Shown here one piece after another: positions 30,122-33,810 of a stretch of DNA of 64,000 nt. The notes below the pieces were generated by a model. It did not search any database. It had not been told where the DNA came from and saw only the letters and a program-made list of their open reading frames with translations. Both the position numbers and the translations under genes were made by a program. Source of the stretch: a virus. Lineage: Duplodnaviria; Heunggongvirae; Uroviricota; Caudoviricetes. Where the stretch lies: IMG/VR virus record IMGVR_UViG_2724679073_000003. The stretch is one strand, 5' to 3'. The first letter of the stretch is position 1; every line of letters starts with the position of its first letter.

Positions 30122-30138
30122 AAATTATTAGTGCAATT
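30122..30138 (-). promoter_or_regulatory. Degenerate C1 operator-like site between divergent operons
   Basis: AAATTATTAGTGCAATT, reverse complement close to ATTGCACTAATAATTT. Confidence 0.4.
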
Positions 30139-30194
30139 TTGATTGTGAAATGTATCATTCTGCCCTTAAGTAGGTTCTTCACGAGGAAACAAAA

Positions 30195-30440
30195 TTGGCA
30201 GAACGTGTTGATGATGCAGAGCTGAGCATGAATCAGTTAGAAGCTCTCAAAGACATGGCCATCGATAACATCAGAAAGCAGGCACAGGTCGTGAGCCAGG
30301 TATTTACAGGGAAGTGTCGTTACTGCAATGAATCGATTGAATCAGGCATTTATTGTGACGCTGAATGTGCGCAATGGCACAGGGAAGAGCAGGCCGCAAA
30401 ACAGCGTAAATATGGCATGCGACCGGCAGGATTTGACTGA
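30195..30440 (+). CDS. TraR/DksA-like C4 zinc-finger protein
   Basis: CRYCNESIESGIYCDAEC. Confidence 0.55.
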   Translation: MAERVDDAELSMNQLEALKDMAIDNIRKQAQVVSQVFTGKCRYCNESIESGIYCDAECAQWHREEQAAKQRKYGMRPAGFD

Positions 30441-30442
30441 TT

Positions 30443-31021
30443 ATGTTGCGCTTTACTGAGGAAGAGTTTCAGGCTTTTAGTGAGCGTCGAAATAAGGGGC
30501 GGCCCAGGCCAAAAACCAAAAAGGATCCATTCTTATCGCTTGCGCCGGTAAAAGAAGTTTCTCCACATGCGAAGGCACTTGCAGCACTTGCAAAGAACCC
30601 AGACCTGCGCGACGGAAATTGCGAGCACTTCGAGCAGGTTTTCATTTTTGATTACTTCGAACGCAAGCACCCTGACATCTATGAGCTGTTGCATGCAACG
30701 CCTAACGGAGGGAAACGTTCAAAAGCAACCGCCGGGAAAATGAAGGCTGAAGGGCAGAAAAAAGGTTATCCGGACATGAGTCTCGATAAAGCATGCGGTA
30801 TTTATCACGGCATGCGAATTGAGCTTAAAGAACCAAATGGTAAAGCCCCGACGAAAGAGCAGATCGCCTGGATGCGCAGGCTTAGAGAGGAAGGTTACTA
30901 CGTCGTTCTTGCGTATGGTGCAGAACAAGCGATAACCGCCATCCTGGAATACATAAGCCTTAAAAAGGGTGAGGCTATTGAGCATGTATTGAACGGCGAC
31001 AAGTGGTTGTATGCTGCTTAA
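30443..31021 (+). CDS. VRR-NUC domain nuclease
   Basis: GQKKGYPDMSL ... GMRIELKEPNGKAPTKEQIAWMRRLREEGYYV pattern of VRR-NUC PD-(D/E)xK nucleases. Confidence 0.65.
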   Translation: MLRFTEEEFQAFSERRNKGRPRPKTKKDPFLSLAPVKEVSPHAKALAALAKNPDLRDGNCEHFEQVFIFDYFERKHPDIYELLHATPNGGKRSKATAGKMKAEGQKKGYPDMSLDKACGIYHGMRIELKEPNGKAPTKEQIAWMRRLREEGYYVVLAYGAEQAITAILEYISLKKGEAIEHVLNGDKWLYAA

Positions 31022-31184
31022 AATAATAAATTAATTAGTACATATGCGCCATTTGATATAGCGCACATTAACATCGGGAGAATAGTCGTGTCATCCAAGG
31101 CTAATTATGAATCGCTGGCATCGATCATGCCGCGTAATGAACAGGAAACAGATGCTGTAGTGGACCCGGTAATCGCTGAAATGA

Positions 31185-31847
31185 ATGCTCGCCTGGAGGC
31201 TGAATTTGCAGCTGAGAATGAACATACCACCCAGGGCGACTAGGACTGTTTTTTGTGTCGGTAGCGGTCCGTCACTCACTCGTGAGGACTGTGCTGCTAT
31301 AGAAAAAACTGGCTGTTCAATCATCGCGGTTAACAATTCCTGGCAGATGTTCGATGACATTTATGCCTTATACGCCGGTGATTTGTCATGGTGGAAGCAA
31401 TACGGATCCACCATACCGGGAGGGAAATTCCGCAAAGTGACAGCCAACCTGGCGGCGGCGAAATCATTTTCGTTGGAGTACAGGCGATATTGTGGACCGG
31501 CGGAAGGGGTAAATAGCGGCGCGCAGGCTATCAGTCTGGCTGCTGAATCAGGGGCTGAAGTAGTTGTATTAGTCGGCTATGACTGTTCTCTGCAAAACGG
31601 CCTTCATTGGCATGGCGCGCACCCTCAAGCCCTACGGAATCCAACGCAGGTGTCTATTTCAAAATGGCAACAGCAGTTCCTGGATACCCGCAAAAAACAC
31701 GCAGATTTACATATTTTGAATGCAAGTAGGAGCAGTGCAATTCAATGTTTCCCAAGAATAAATTTAGAGGCAGTGATCGCGTTATTATCGTCGGCAGTGG
31801 CCCAAGCGCCGCAAACTTTGTTGCGCCGCGCGGAGTGCCGATTATAG
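31185..31847 (+). CDS. Putative GT42/DUF115 (Cst-II/MptE-like) transferase, paralog 1
   Basis: Motifs CVGSGPSL, IIAVNNSW, VLVGYDCS, HWHGAH; start uncertain (ATG 31185 or 31218); small overlapping ORF 31088..31249. Confidence 0.5.
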   Translation: MLAWRLNLQLRMNIPPRATRTVFCVGSGPSLTREDCAAIEKTGCSIIAVNNSWQMFDDIYALYAGDLSWWKQYGSTIPGGKFRKVTANLAAAKSFSLEYRRYCGPAEGVNSGAQAISLAAESGAEVVVLVGYDCSLQNGLHWHGAHPQALRNPTQVSISKWQQQFLDTRKKHADLHILNASRSSAIQCFPRINLEAVIALLSSAVAQAPQTLLRRAECRL

Positions 31848-32371
31848 CGGTCAATGGGGCCATCGACTGGCTGAACCGCGCTTCTTATTTTTTCACACTT
31901 GATCCATCGCCAGACAATATGCGGCGCGTTGGTCGTGGCCGCCGTCGCCGTGGTGTTTGTTATTGCATGGCACTACCCGATGTTAAAGAACGTGAAGTCA
32001 GAGACGGCGTTCTGTGCTTCCGTCGTGTGGCTGAACGTGGCATGGAGCCAAAAAATATGAATTCTCCCGAGTGGTGGGCGTGGCGCTGGTCCGCACATTT
32101 CGGACTTTGCGAAGATGAGAATGAAATTGCCAGCGGCAATAGTGCATATGGCGCTCTGAACCTGGCTTTCCATATCGGATTCAAACATGTCGCCCTGGTG
32201 GGCGTTGACGCTACACAAGAACCACGCGTTCACTCCGGCGGCACGCCAAAAAATCTAAGTCACCTGCCTTTGTTATTCCAGTCTGCGCGTGAACAGATTG
32301 ACGTTGTTTCATGCGGGAAAATGGGAGGTATTCCGCAGATGACTCTTAAAGAATGGCTGAAGAATACATGA
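31745..32371 (+). CDS. Putative GT42/DUF115-like transferase, paralog 2
   Basis: Motifs [30 protein letters not shown]; overlaps paralog 1 by about 100 nt. Confidence 0.5.
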
Positions 32372-33045
32372 TGGCACCCACAATTTATCACCGTATCGAC
32401 GGTACCAAATACAGGAATGTCTGGGTTGTTGGTGATCTGCATGGTTGCTACACCAGACTGATGTCCGAACTCCATCGTGTGGATTTTGACCCGGCGCAGG
32501 ATTTACTGATATCGGTCGGCGACCTTATCGATCGCGGTACTGAAAATGTCGAATGTCTGGAACTATTGCAGATGCCCTGGTTCAGGGCAGTGATGGGGAA
32601 CCATGAGCGGCTGATGATTGATGCGTTAAGTCCAGATGGCAACGTGAATAACTGGCTAATGAATGGCGGACAATGGTTCTTCATGCTGGACACTGATCAG
32701 GAAATATTAGCCTGGGCGCTGGTGGAGCTGGTAAAGCGTCTGCCCTATATCATTGAGTTGAACACCGGGCAAGAAACTATCGTTATAGCCCATGCCGACT
32801 ATCCGGATAATGAATACCAATTCGGTAAGGAGGTGCCGCTTTTCAACGTTGTCTGGGCGCGCGAGCGTATCAGTGATTCGATGGATGATATTGGTGGCGA
32901 AATTTCGGGCGCAGATCGTTTTATCTTTGGTCACACTCCGGTGAAAAGCCCGAAGACATTCTGGAATCAGCAGTATATCGACACTGGTGCCGTATTTTGC
33001 GGAAACCTGACATTGATGAAAGTGAAAGGTGATGGTGCAGCATGA
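32353..33045 (+). CDS. ppp: Ser/Thr protein phosphatase, lambda PPase-like
   Basis: Near-collinear match to lambda phosphatase as recalled: [64 protein letters not shown]. Confidence 0.85.
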
Positions 33046-33743
33046 AGATTGCTTTAGTTTTTCGCTCTGGTGGTGACTATAACGCTTCCGATGTGCAGTG
33101 GCTGGTTAATCAACTGCCAAAAGGCTATGAAATTATTTGCCTGACAGACCTGAAGCGTTTACATGTACCTGGCGTCAAAGTTGTCCCATTGATCAACCAG
33201 TGGCAAAAGTGCCGTGGCTGGTGGGCGAAAATCGAGTTGTTCCGACCGGATATAACAGATGATCTGTTCTATCTGGATTTGGACACAGTTATTGCCGGTG
33301 ATATACGCCCAATCCTTGAGAATCCACCAACCAGCTTCACCATGCTTAGGGATTTTTACCATCCACAATATCGTGGTAGCGGTGCCCTGTGGATACCAAA
33401 TAGTGTAAAAGCGCATATCTGGAGTTCATTCTGGCAAGATCCGGAAGGTTGGATTTCTCGTTGTGTCACTACTGAGTGCTGGGGTGATCAGGGGTTCTTA
33501 CGGAAGGTTATGGGCGATGATACACCAGCATTTCAGGATCTGTATCCAGGATGGTTTGTAAGTTACAAGGCCGATGTTGTGGAACCTGGTTCAAAATATG
33601 CGAGCGCGCGTTACTCCAGGGGGAATGGGGCATTACCAAAGGACTGCCGAATAATCTTTTTCCACGGCAAACCGCGACCTCGCGAAGTGTCAGAGGATTG
33701 GCTTCCCCTTATTAGCTCGTTTTTTGAGCGAGAATCAGAATAA
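33042..33743 (+). CDS. Putative DXD-motif (GT-A-like) glycosyltransferase
   Basis: Rossmann-like N-terminus [13 protein letters not shown] and FYLDLDTVI (DxD) motif; translationally coupled to ppp. Confidence 0.45.
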
Positions 33744-33744
33744 T

Positions 33745-33761
33745 ATTGCTCTAATAATTCC
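33745..33761 (+). promoter_or_regulatory. C1 operator (left of hairpin)
   Basis: ATTGCTCTAATAATTCC, first 13 positions match consensus. Confidence 0.6.
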
Positions 33762-33769
33762 ATATTTTT

Positions 33770-33797
33770 AAAACGTGATGTACACTCATCACGTTTT
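33770..33797. terminator. Perfect 11-bp stem hairpin with T-run (bidirectional terminator candidate)
   Basis: AAAACGTGATG-TACACT-CATCACGTTTT then TTA. Confidence 0.6.
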
Positions 33798-33810
33798 TTA
33801 TTAGAGCAAT
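33794..33810 (-). promoter_or_regulatory. C1 operator (right of hairpin, inverted orientation)
   Basis: TTTTTTATTAGAGCAAT, reverse complement ATTGCTCTAATAAAAAA. Confidence 0.6.

What the first reader, a model, noticed from the sequence alone, without database searches (positions are those of the whole stretch)
30122..33810. Early operon combining TraR-like zinc finger, VRR-NUC nuclease, two overlapping GT42/DUF115-like paralogs, lambda-type protein phosphatase and a DXD glycosyltransferase-like gene
Two tandem paralogs share GSGPS / IAVN / VG(Y/V)D / H-x-x-H motifs in the order seen in Cst-II-type sialyltransferases and MptE-like proteins. They overlap by ~100 nt and are followed by tightly coupled ppp and a DXD-motif protein. 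The unit is bracketed by C1 operator-like sites. Transferases plus a nuclease could be a DNA or cell-surface modification module (superinfection exclusion, anti-restriction, or hypermodification).
Basis: partly seen in the sequence, partly recalled or inferred. Interest (0 to 1): 0.6.

Follow-up and report, generated by a model that had tools for sequence, protein, structure and literature searches.

The report
Phage P1 pmgO-pmgP-pmgQ glycosylation cassette
The region is the known but uncharacterised pmgL–pmgQ block of a P1-type phage, and three of its genes (pmgO, pmgP, pmgQ) form a sugar-transferase cassette shared by many phages that most likely decorates proteins, perhaps the virus particle.

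Summary
The window is a P1-type phage (99.5% identical to RCS47, 98.7% to P1). The region is P1's pmgL-pmgM-pmgN-pmgO-pmgP-ppp-pmgQ, between C1 operators, with the overlaps described.

PmgO and PmgP are distant paralogs (hhalign 97.9%). Their closest solved folds are the flagellin glycosyltransferase Maf, archaeal MptE and sialyltransferase Cst-I. PmgQ is GT8-like, with an invariant DxD. Ppp is a lambda-type phosphatase.

The seven genes are not one functional unit. Only pmgO, pmgP and pmgQ travel together in the roughly 40 loci examined from Proteobacteria and Bacteroidota. Natural O-P, P-Q, Q-P and Q-P-methyltransferase fusions exist. pmgL and pmgM are confined to P1-like elements, and ppp to only some of those.

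The trio sits directly after the major capsid gene in at least eight HK97-like prophage types. Elsewhere it lies between lysis and terminase genes, or beside Ig-like (Big_1) proteins on chromosomes. Four P1-like relatives without ppp carry kdsB (CMP-Kdo synthetase) nearby.

Best reading: a protein, possibly virion, glycosylation module that may use CMP-Kdo. The target and donor are inferred, not shown. Published P1 knockouts show no plating or antirestriction defect. DNA hypermodification is unlikely, and LPS remodelling is not excluded.

The parts
30121..30137 (-). C1 operator O26 (Op82), left boundary. The divergent promoter region holding late promoter LPpmgL lies at about 30088-30106.
   Evidence: Pattern search: 2 mismatches to the C1 consensus. 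The stretch is identical to P1, where the operator and promoters are annotated.
30195..30440 (+). pmgL: 81-aa DksA/TraR-like zinc-finger protein (C41-x2-C44-x9-C54-x3-C58). Found only in P1-like elements; not part of the cassette.
   Evidence: PHROG 54, E=1.6e-12. Weak Pfam VATC treble clef hit. Found only in P1-like loci.
30443..31021 (+). pmgM: 192-aa VRR-NUC-like nuclease (P110-D111 ... E127-x-K129). Found only in P1-like elements; not part of the cassette.
   Evidence: Pfam VRR_NUC 21.2 bits, below the 23.8 cut-off. PHROG 5702 'Holliday junction resolvase', E=8e-27.
31028..31044 (-). Position of P1 operator Oppp (Op83). It is degenerate here, with 5 mismatches to the consensus and one change from P1.
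   Evidence: P1 annotation; sequence comparison. Not found at 3 or fewer mismatches.
31088..31243 (+). pmgN: 51-aa protein restricted to P1-like phages; function unknown.
   Evidence: PHROG 2350, E=1e-37. CRISPRi knock-down lowers plating to EOP 1.4e-2, yet the deletion is non-essential (PMC10695390).
31185..31847 (+). pmgO: MptE-like/DUF115 (Maf/Cst-type) transferase, paralog 1. Motifs are GSGPSL, IAVNNSW, YAGD, NSG, GYDCS and HWHGxH. The real start may be ATG 31218.
31745..32371 (+). pmgP: MptE-like/DUF115 transferase, paralog 2, in the -1 frame relative to pmgO. Its GSGPS loop is encoded inside the 103-nt overlap.
32353..33045 (+). ppp: lambda NinI-type Ser/Thr metallophosphatase. It was inserted into the cassette in the P1 lineage only.
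   Evidence: Pfam Metallophos 59.3 bits. PHROG 246, E=5e-113. Absent between pmgP and pmgQ in every non-P1 locus; that slot is often filled by a SAM methyltransferase instead. D6 has ppp but no PmgP.
33042..33743 (+). pmgQ: GT8-like GT-A glycosyltransferase. Conserved elements are WWxK, DLDT (DxD), GDQ, SYK and FHGxPRP.
   Evidence: Family profile against PDB: GT8 chain 6mw5 E=1.6e-6, GT8 GlyE 5gvv E=2.5e-3. Invariant columns. PHROG 1962 'glycosyltransferase'.
33745..33810 (.). Right boundary: C1 operators OpmgRa (33745-33761, +) and OpmgRb (33794-33810, -), flanking an 11-bp-stem hairpin (33770-33797) with a U-run. This is a likely terminator of the pmgN-pmgQ transcript.
   Evidence: RNA fold dG -13.4 kcal/mol, z=-5.5.

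Best explanation
pmgO, pmgP and pmgQ form a conserved, mobile three-enzyme glycosylation cassette.

PmgO and PmgP are distant paralogs of the DUF115/MptE-like fold. This is the fold of the Maf flagellin glycosyltransferases and of the Cst-type (GT42) sialyltransferases. They probably act as a pair. PmgQ is a GT8-like, DxD-dependent hexosyltransferase.

The genes are transcribed during lytic growth, from C1-repressed promoters and a late promoter.

Most likely mechanism (inferred): the soluble cytoplasmic enzymes use host nucleotide sugars to build a short O-linked glycan on a protein acceptor. PmgO/PmgP would use a CMP-activated ulosonic acid, most plausibly CMP-Kdo, the only one I know K-12-type hosts to make. 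PmgQ would use a UDP-hexose. The best guess for the acceptor is a virion structural protein.

pmgL, pmgM, pmgN and ppp are P1-lineage neighbours, not parts of the cassette.

Shown: the folds and families, the paralogy, the co-inheritance, the fusions and the genomic contexts. Inferred: glycosyl transfer rather than pyrophosphoryl transfer, the donor sugars, and the acceptor.

The confidence of 0.45 is for the whole statement including a protein acceptor. For 'a functionally linked glycosyltransferase trio' alone I would say about 0.8. For 'virion protein in P1' about 0.3 to 0.35. For 'CMP-Kdo donor' about 0.35.
For: Fold:
- Natural O-P fusion model: the same neighbours.
- 73 of 74 family members match PF01973; P0051 scores above the gathering threshold.

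PmgQ: its family profile hits solved GT8 enzymes, both of which extend protein-linked glycans (6mw5 E=1.6e-6; 5gvv E=2.5e-3). The DxD is invariant.

Linkage:
- The trio co-occurs without ppp, pmgL or pmgM in lambdoid, HK97-like, podovirus-like and chromosomal loci.
- Natural fusions: O-P (P0051), P-Q (P0220, P0284), Q-P (P0306), Q-P-methyltransferase (P0267), methyltransferase-P (P0304).

Context:
- Directly downstream of the PF05065 major capsid gene, or of the connector gene, in L017, L018, L031/L120, L125, L128, L130, L205, L250, L032/L116 and L117.
- In the late operon between lysis and terminase genes in L003, L124, L004, L033, L119 and L019.
- Beside Big_1 invasin-like proteins in Pseudescherichia and Serratia chromosomes.

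Donor clue:
- kdsB (TIGR00466, 180-270 bits against a 155 cut-off) lies about 2.5 kb downstream in the P1-like relatives L005/6, L129 and L140. L122 has only two kdsB-like ORF fragments, detected by phmmer and not scored against TIGR00466.
- kdsB is found in only 6 of 50,697 phage records.
- All genome loci are from Proteobacteria or Bacteroidota.

Consistent with a dispensable accessory role: P1 knockouts plate normally (PMC9024508; PMC10695390).

Precedent: mycobacteriophages glycosylate capsid and tail tube proteins with their own glycosyltransferases (Freeman 2023, as cited in PMC12363180).
Against: - No glycosylated P1 virion protein has been reported. The P1 virion proteome paper and a 2026 cryo-EM paper mention none (text searches).
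- In P1 itself the cassette is not next to the capsid gene.
- The P1 proteins score below Pfam's PF01973 cut-off, and PmgQ has no Pfam hit.
- The link to the Kdo transferase WaaZ is not significant (hhalign 12-17%).
- kdsB is absent from P1 itself.
- No Big_1-like protein was found in the window.
- The capsid C-terminal tails do not distinguish phages that carry the cassette from those that lack it.
Confidence: 0.45

Rival explanations
1. LPS or cell-envelope remodelling during lytic growth. The enzymes would add Kdo and hexose to lipid A-core on the cytoplasmic face of the inner membrane. This would mask or alter the P1 receptor (LPS core), so that progeny are not lost on debris or superinfecting phages are excluded.
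For: - The LPS core glucosyltransferases WaaO and WaaJ belong to GT8 (own knowledge; their genes lie in the E. coli waa cluster).
- The precomputed Pfam list gives a faint WaaZ_KDO_III hit on the fused homolog.
- kdsB lies next to the cassette in P1-like relatives.
- The family is seen only in LPS-bearing phyla.
- A preprint proposes sequestration of LPS sugars as a route to superinfection exclusion (10.1101/2023.12.21.572611).
Against: - The genes are C1-repressed, so they are not expressed in lysogens.
- Placement between capsid and head-completion genes, and beside Big_1 proteins, points to protein targets.
- Similarity to WaaZ is not significant.
- The closest solved GT8 relatives act on protein-linked glycans.
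- The best structural neighbour is a protein glycosyltransferase, Maf.
Confidence: 0.22
2. PmgO and PmgP are not glycosyltransferases but MptE/thiamine-pyrophosphokinase-like pyrophosphokinases. They would make a small phosphorylated metabolite that PmgQ, or the methyltransferase in other phages, then modifies.
For: - The Pfam family they match is named for MptE.
Against: - The top structural hit for both models is the Maf glycosyltransferase.
- The GxGPS(L) loop matches my recollection of the Cst-II N-terminal GNGPSL loop; the profile comparison with Cst-II itself is not significant (E about 0.5).
- There are obligate linkage and fusions with a GT8-like enzyme.
- A neighbouring CMP-Kdo synthetase fits a CMP-sugar donor.
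Confidence: 0.12
3. DNA hypermodification or anti-restriction. The transferases would glycosylate phage DNA bases, with PmgM as a partner nuclease.
For: - Phage glycosyltransferases can attach diverse sugars, including a Kdo-like acid, to 5hmC (10.1101/2023.12.21.572611).
- A VRR-NUC gene lies upstream in P1.
Against: - Those DNA systems need a cytosine methyltransferase and a TET-like (5mYOX) enzyme to make 5hmC first, and the Kdo- and heptose-adding enzymes there have a T4 beta-GT-like GT-B fold. Neither such precursor enzymes nor that fold is present here.
- pmgM is not linked to the trio outside P1-like elements.
- The P1 pmg knockouts show no change in antirestriction activity (PMC9024508).
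- To my knowledge P1 DNA carries methylation only.
- Chromosomal copies sit among adhesin-like genes.
- No PADLOC match.
Confidence: 0.04
4. The 103-nt pmgO/pmgP overlap serves a programmed -1 ribosomal frameshift that makes a PmgO-PmgP fusion protein in P1.
For: - pmgP is in the -1 frame relative to pmgO.
- A heptamer of the X_XXY_YYZ type (A_AAT_TTA, 31760-31766) lies in the overlap.
- A shift there would give a product collinear with the natural 376-aa fusion P0051.
Against: - pmgP has its own conserved ATG in every lineage checked.
- The heptamer is not conserved (absent in L003).
- Overlap length varies by lineage (about 103, 100, 94, 70, 49 and 40 nt, down to about 11 or 4 nt, or none). 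A 4-nt ATGA stop/start overlap would itself place the downstream gene in the -1 frame, so the frame relation may simply be inherited from such an arrangement.
- The PmgO tail encoded in the overlap is not conserved.
Confidence: 0.05

Closest known systems
Maf (motility accessory factor) flagellin glycosyltransferases, e.g. Magnetospirillum Maf, PDB 5mu5
   Different: Sequence identity is about 15-16%. PmgO and PmgP are about 200 aa, against 632 aa for the Maf chain, so they can hold little beyond the catalytic core. They come as a paralog pair with a GT8-like partner. Neither donor nor acceptor has been tested.
GT42 sialyltransferases Cst-I and Cst-II of Campylobacter jejuni
   Different: Profile E-values are only about 0.5. 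Correspondence of the catalytic His is not established. From my own knowledge, P1's K-12 laboratory hosts make no CMP-sialic acid and Cst enzymes act on lipooligosaccharide, so the label 'sialyltransferase' is probably wrong in detail.
GT8 retaining glycosyltransferases (Skp1 alpha-galactosyltransferase 6mw5; S. pneumoniae GlyE 5gvv)
   Same: The PmgQ family profile matches both (E=1.6e-6 and 2.5e-3). PmgQ has a DxD and, from my recollection of GT8, a C-terminal His-Gly...Pro motif resembling that family's HxxGxxKPW. Both solved relatives extend glycans on proteins.
   Different: No match to Pfam Glyco_transf_8. The protein is shorter (233 aa). The His motif is compressed (FHGxPRP). Sugar specificity is unknown.
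Mycobacteriophage virion glycosylation (Che8, Corndog, Myrna; Freeman et al. 2023)
   Same: Phage-encoded glycosyltransferases that modify capsid and tail tube proteins (as summarised in PMC12363180), with a possible link to a methyltransferase (as cited in PMC12894461). The PmgO/P/Q cassette lies next to capsid genes and often includes a methyltransferase in many Gram-negative prophages.
   Different: I did not compare the enzyme families. The hosts are Gram-negative. No biochemical evidence exists here. In P1 the cassette is not beside the capsid gene.
Archaeal MptE (6-hydroxymethyl-7,8-dihydropterin pyrophosphokinase) and thiamine pyrophosphokinases
   Different: No folate or thiamine pathway genes appear in any of the contexts examined. 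The genes are linked to a glycosyltransferase and a CMP-Kdo synthetase.

Membership tests
DUF115 / MptE-like superfamily (PF01973; includes Maf and, by fold, GT42) | Match to the PF01973 profile above the gathering score (34.6 bits) | tested here: inconclusive
   P1-type PmgO scores 23.6 bits and PmgP 21.1 bits, both below the cut-off. The natural O-P fusion P0051 scores 44.6 bits, above it. 73 of 74 family members match at E<=1.
DUF115 / MptE-like superfamily (PF01973; includes Maf and, by fold, GT42) | Rossmann-like alpha/beta core whose closest solved structures are Maf, MptE and Cst | tested here: met
GT42 sialyltransferase (Cst-I/II) | Catalytic histidine acting as general base (His188 in Cst-II, from my own knowledge), and CMP-sugar binding residues | not testable with these tools
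   PmgO has invariant H141 and H143 and nearly invariant H146. PmgP has invariant H173. No residue-level superposition was available. The profile E-value against Cst-II is only about 0.5.
GT42 sialyltransferase (Cst-I/II) | Transfer of a CMP-activated nonulosonic or ulosonic acid | not testable with these tools
   Only indirect evidence: kdsB lies next to the cassette in P1-like relatives.
GT8 retaining glycosyltransferases | Significant sequence relation to characterised GT8 members | tested here: met
   PmgQ family profile against PDB: 6mw5 E=1.6e-6 and 5gvv E=2.5e-3. PmgQ alone has no Pfam hit at E<=1.
GT8 retaining glycosyltransferases | DxD metal-binding motif and a C-terminal His (HxxGxxKPW) | tested here: inconclusive
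   D79-x-D81 is invariant, and so are H208, G209, P211 and P213 (FHGxPRP). The His motif is two residues shorter than in 6mw5 and aligns out of register.
Lambda-type PPP Ser/Thr phosphatase (Metallophos) | Match to PF00149 above its cut-off, and close similarity to NinI/PphA | tested here: met
   59.3 bits against a 21.5 cut-off. PHROG 246, E=5e-113. NCBIfam PRK11439 scores 272 bits, below its equivalog cut-off of 326. P1's annotation states 64% identity to lambda phosphatase.
VRR-NUC nuclease | PF08774 match and a PD-(D/E)xK catalytic motif | tested here: inconclusive
   21.2 bits against a 23.8 cut-off. PHROG 5702, E=8e-27. P110-D111 ... E127-L-K129 are present in the sequence.
DksA/TraR C4 zinc finger | Four-cysteine zinc finger and a family profile match | tested here: inconclusive
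   PHROG 54 'DksA-like zinc-finger', E=1.6e-12. Cysteines are at positions 41, 44, 54 and 58, but the second pair is CxxxC and the spacer is 9 residues. No Pfam zf-dskA_traR hit.
Phage virion glycosylation systems (mycobacteriophage type) | Glycosyltransferase genes beside structural genes, and glycans on virion proteins | tested here: inconclusive
   The synteny criterion is met in at least eight HK97-like prophage types but not in P1 itself. Glycans on virions cannot be tested here, and none are reported for P1.
Phage DNA base glycosylation (T4 alpha/beta-GT, 5hmC glycosyltransferase clusters) | Co-occurrence with enzymes that make 5hmC or 5hmU, and a DNA-binding glycosyltransferase fold | tested here: not met
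   The Pfam listings for neighbouring genes show no hydroxymethylase or TET-like family in any locus examined. The folds are Maf-like and GT8-like.
WaaZ-type Kdo transferase (PF27901) | Homology to E. coli WaaZ | tested here: inconclusive
   hhalign of the PmgP and PmgO families against WaaZ gives 17% and 12% probability. The only other sign is a 'faint' precomputed hit on P0051. No PF27901 hit at E<=1 in my scans.

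The most novel reading that the evidence does not exclude
P1 and many temperate phages of Gram-negative bacteria O-glycosylate their own virion proteins, or other Ig-like surface proteins, with a short glycan that contains Kdo. The glycan would be built by a Maf-like PmgO/PmgP heterodimer plus the GT8-like PmgQ, drawing on the host's CMP-Kdo pool, which some relatives top up with their own kdsB. To my knowledge this would be the first virion glycosylation system described in Gram-negative phages and the first protein-linked Kdo.
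Probability: 0.2. Interest if true: 0.8.

Novelty: new variant of a known kind. Interest (0 to 1): 0.5.

Why it matters
P1 is a paradigm phage, yet pmgL to pmgQ are still annotated only as 'putative morphogenetic function'.

This analysis turns three of these genes into a defined, widely distributed cassette: 606 PmgP clusters at 50% identity. It also gives a concrete prediction that existing reagents can test, because the single-gene P1 knockouts already exist.

If the cassette glycosylates virions, three things follow:
- Phage particle glycosylation would extend from mycobacteriophages to Gram-negative phages.
- It would bear on immune recognition of therapeutic phages and of P1-like phage-plasmids.
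- It would add a new class of protein glycosyltransferases, possibly Kdo-dependent.

If the target is LPS instead, it would be a new receptor-masking mechanism that acts during lytic growth.

Either way, the database labels 'alpha-2,3-sialyltransferase', 'norphogenetic protein' and 'phosphohydrolase' need revising.

Tried and rejected
- **Sequencing frameshift or programmed -1 frameshift in the overlap.** Rejected as the main reading. pmgP has its own ATG everywhere, the overlap length varies by lineage, and the heptamer is not conserved.
- **A capsid C-terminal Ser tail as the acceptor signature.** Most cassette-bearing HK97-like capsids examined end in Ser-containing tails. However, 80 related capsids show similar tails with no cassette detected downstream, and there are cassette-bearing exceptions, L128 and L205. 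The feature does not discriminate.
- **A Big_1/Ig-like acceptor in P1.** phmmer with eight Big_1 proteins from the chromosomal loci found nothing in the window.
- **Homology to WaaZ.** Not significant.
- **Known defence or anti-defence families.** No PADLOC hits.
- **First structure job.** The PmgO homologs appear to have been aligned onto the PmgP half, so the PmgO half of the fusion model is poor (pLDDT about 40-85). No claim about a domain interface is made from it.
- **First viral-contig scan.** It returned only P1 copies. I repeated it with a distant first sequence.
- **AFDB fold libraries.** Not available.
- **Annotated lytic phages with PmgP homologs** (EP_H11, XacN1). Their neighbours are unannotated and told me nothing.
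- **Freeman et al. 2023.** The paper is not held in the library, so it is cited only through papers that describe it.

Full report
**What the window is.** Window 30000-34100 is 99.5% identical to Escherichia phage RCS47 and 98.7% identical to P1. P1's annotation maps directly onto the region: pmgL, pmgM, pmgN, pmgO, pmgP, ppp and pmgQ, all labelled 'putative morphogenetic function' except ppp. P7 calls the same genes hdmA to hdmD, 'head morphogenesis'. The finding's coordinates run exactly from C1 operator O26 to operator OpmgRb.

**Check of the observation.**
- All ORFs exist as described, and their products are 98-100% identical to the P1 proteins.
- The overlaps are 59 nt (pmgN/pmgO), 103 nt (pmgO/pmgP), 19 nt (pmgP/ppp) and 4 nt (ppp/pmgQ).
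- C1 operator-like 17-mers lie at 30121-30137, 33745-33761 and 33794-33810. The window holds 14 such sites against 0.38 expected by chance.
- The internal operator Oppp (31028-31044) is degenerate here, with 5 mismatches to the consensus and one change from P1.
- Between the two right-hand operators sits an 11-bp-stem hairpin with a U-run (dG -13.4 kcal/mol, z=-5.5). It is a plausible terminator for the pmgN-pmgQ transcript.
- P1's annotation also places a late promoter, LPpmgL, upstream of pmgL, and this stretch is identical in the window. 'Early operon' is therefore only partly right.

**What the proteins are.**
- PmgL matches the DksA/TraR-like zinc-finger PHROG (E=1.6e-12).
- PmgM matches VRR-NUC weakly in Pfam and a 'Holliday junction resolvase' PHROG strongly. 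It carries a PD...ExK motif.
- Ppp is a clear lambda NinI-type metallophosphatase.
- PmgO and PmgP each match Pfam MptE-like (PF01973) below the cut-off. Direct BLAST between them is marginal, but profile-profile comparison of the two families gives 97.9% probability (E=4e-13) over 162 collinear columns. They are true but distant paralogs.
- Both families share GxGPS, IAVN, an (N)SG helix start and G(Y/V)D. The histidine-rich HWHGxH motif belongs to PmgO only; PmgP has NLSHLP instead.
- PmgQ has no Pfam hit. Its family profile does match solved GT8 enzymes (6mw5 E=1.6e-6; 5gvv E=2.5e-3), and its DxD and FHGxPRP motifs are invariant.
They also repeat what RefSeq and PHROGs already say.

**The unit is smaller than the finding.** I looked at homologs in other contigs.
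- Only pmgO, pmgP and pmgQ stay together. They do so across Gamma-, Beta- and Alphaproteobacteria and one Bacteroidota genome.
- ppp lies between pmgP and pmgQ only in some P1-like elements (the P1/P7 group and relatives such as L009, L127 and L135-L139). pmgL and pmgM occur in P1-like elements generally, including relatives that lack ppp (L005/6, L129, L140).
- Phage D6 has ppp but no PmgP homolog.
- In other phages the same slot is empty or holds a SAM methyltransferase.
- An exhaustive profile search found 606 PmgP clusters at 50% identity. Among them are natural fusions: O-P (P0051), P-Q (P0220, P0284), Q-P (P0306), Q-P-methyltransferase (P0267) and methyltransferase-P (P0304).
- Co-inheritance together with fusions in every pairwise combination is strong evidence that the three proteins work together.

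**The overlap.**
- pmgP lies in the -1 frame relative to pmgO in 22 of the 24 loci with adjacent genes. A 4-nt ATGA stop/start overlap would by itself give that frame relation.
- Overlap length varies by lineage: about 103, 100, 94, 70, 49 and 40 nt, down to about 11 or 4 nt, or none.
- pmgP keeps its own start codon everywhere, and the PmgO tail encoded in the overlap is not conserved.
- In P1 the GSGPS loop of PmgP is encoded 63 nt upstream of the pmgO stop, so the overlap is real dual coding.
- A slippery-type heptamer (A_AAT_TTA, 31760-31766) would allow a -1 shift into a fusion collinear with P0051. It is not conserved, and I rate this idea at about 5%.

**Where the cassette sits.** Four kinds of context recur.
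1. In HK97-like prophages it comes directly after the major capsid gene (PF05065) or the connector gene, and before the head-completion genes. Examples are a Pseudomonas prophage (L031), an Ochrobactrum-type prophage (L032), and genomes of Zhongshania (L017) and a Methylophilaceae MAG (L018). Viral contigs L116, L117, L120, L125, L128, L130, L205 and L250 show the same.
2. In lambdoid and podovirus-like phages it lies between the lysis cassette and the terminase genes, for example in a Citrobacter rodentium prophage (L003; phiNP is the matching isolate) and in L004, L019, L033 and L119.
3. In P1-like phage-plasmids it lies between pmgM and pmgR.
4. In Pseudescherichia and Serratia chromosomes it is interleaved with Big_1 (bacterial Ig-like) invasin-type proteins.

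In the phage contexts the position implies expression during lytic growth. Contexts 1 and 4 point to a protein acceptor. The capsid-adjacent position with an accessory methyltransferase recalls the mycobacteriophage virion glycosylation genes (Freeman 2023, as described in PMC12363180 and PMC12894461).

**Donor clue.**
- P1-like relatives that lack ppp carry a bona fide kdsB (CMP-Kdo synthetase) about 2.5 kb downstream on the same strand. In L005/6, L129 and L140 it scores 180-270 bits on TIGR00466, against a cut-off of 155. L122 has only two kdsB-like ORF fragments, detected by phmmer.
- kdsB is otherwise rare in phages, occurring in 6 of 50,697 records.
- CMP-Kdo is, to my knowledge, the only CMP-activated ulosonic acid made by K-12-type hosts.
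- All genome loci found are in LPS-bearing phyla.
- This fits PmgO/PmgP being CMP-Kdo-dependent transferases, but it remains an inference. Homology to the Kdo transferase WaaZ is not significant.

**Experimental literature.**
- A collection of 29 single-gene P1 knockouts was made. [quoted passage not shown]
- A CRISPRi screen lists pmgL, pmgM, pmgO, pmgP, ppp and pmgQ as non-essential. Oddly, pmgN knock-down lowers plating about 70-fold although its deletion is tolerated (PMC10695390).
- Neither the P1 virion proteome paper nor a 2026 cryo-EM paper mentions glycans. This is weak negative evidence, since standard searches and maps miss unexpected modifications on flexible regions.

**Conclusion.**
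- The best-supported explanation is a lytic-phase glycosylation cassette (PmgO/PmgP pair plus PmgQ) acting on a protein, possibly a virion component. The donors are probably CMP-Kdo and a UDP-hexose.
- LPS remodelling is the main rival, at about 0.2.
- A pyrophosphokinase chemistry for PmgO/PmgP is not excluded, at about 0.1.
- DNA hypermodification and anti-restriction are unlikely: there are no precursor enzymes, the folds are wrong, there is no phenotype, and the nuclease is not linked to the trio.
- The genes are already known and already carry predicted labels, so the observation itself is not new.
- What is new is the delimitation of the cassette, the fusions, the capsid-adjacent and adhesin-adjacent contexts, and the kdsB link. 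Together they give a testable function for long-unexplained genes of a model phage.

Noticed in passing
window 31028-31070: The Oppp operator and the intergenic stretch between pmgM and pmgN are the part of the region most diverged from P1. The operator core reads GTACAT here against GTGCAT in P1, and has 5 mismatches to the C1 consensus. C1 control of pmgN-pmgQ may therefore be weaker in this phage.
   Followed up: partly
window 31760-31766: A heptamer of the X_XXY_YYZ type (A_AAT_TTA), in the pmgO frame, lies inside the pmgO/pmgP overlap. A -1 shift here would produce an O-P fusion collinear with the natural fusion protein P0051. It is not conserved in other lineages.
   Followed up: partly
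window 31185-31232: The first 16 or so residues of the annotated PmgO are unconserved and modelled with pLDDT below 50, and homologs start later. ATG 31218 may be the real start, which would cut the pmgN/pmgO overlap from 59 to 26 nt.
   Followed up: partly
window 31088-31243 (pmgN): Published CRISPRi knock-down at pmgN lowers P1 plating about 70-fold (EOP 1.4e-2). Yet deletion of pmgN and of every downstream gene in the operon is tolerated (table in PMC10695390). This is unexplained.
   Followed up: no
window 33770-33797: A strong hairpin (11-bp stem, dG -13.4 kcal/mol, z=-5.5) with a U-run lies exactly between the two C1 operators OpmgRa and OpmgRb. It is a likely terminator that overlaps the pmgR promoter and operator region.
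   Followed up: partly
L005 10658-11892; L129 10647-11402; L140 10186-10974: P1-like relatives without ppp encode a full kdsB (CMP-Kdo synthetase). In L005 it overlaps the start of a homolog of P1 pap, a HAD-type phosphatase. This raises the possibility that Pap serves sugar-phosphate metabolism rather than acting as a general 'acid phosphatase'.
   Followed up: partly
L128 385-702; L205 4661-4972; L250 4729-5007: In three HK97-like contigs a small reading frame (93-106 residues between stops) sits between the capsid gene and the PmgO homolog. Its C-terminal tail is rich in Ser/Thr and basic residues. It could be a decoration protein or a candidate acceptor.
   Followed up: no
L030 1236-17532; L034 674-2500: Most of the Big_1 (Ig-like) proteins next to the chromosomal copies of the trio start without an obvious signal peptide, judged by eye. 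In Serratia they lie beside a holin and a lysozyme gene, so they may belong to a phage-derived element rather than being classical adhesins.
   Followed up: no
protein database entries for PmgO, PmgP and PmgQ homologs: Public names are inconsistent and partly wrong: 'norphogenetic protein' (a propagated typo), 'alpha-2,3-sialyltransferase', and 'phosphohydrolase' for PmgQ homologs.
   Followed up: no
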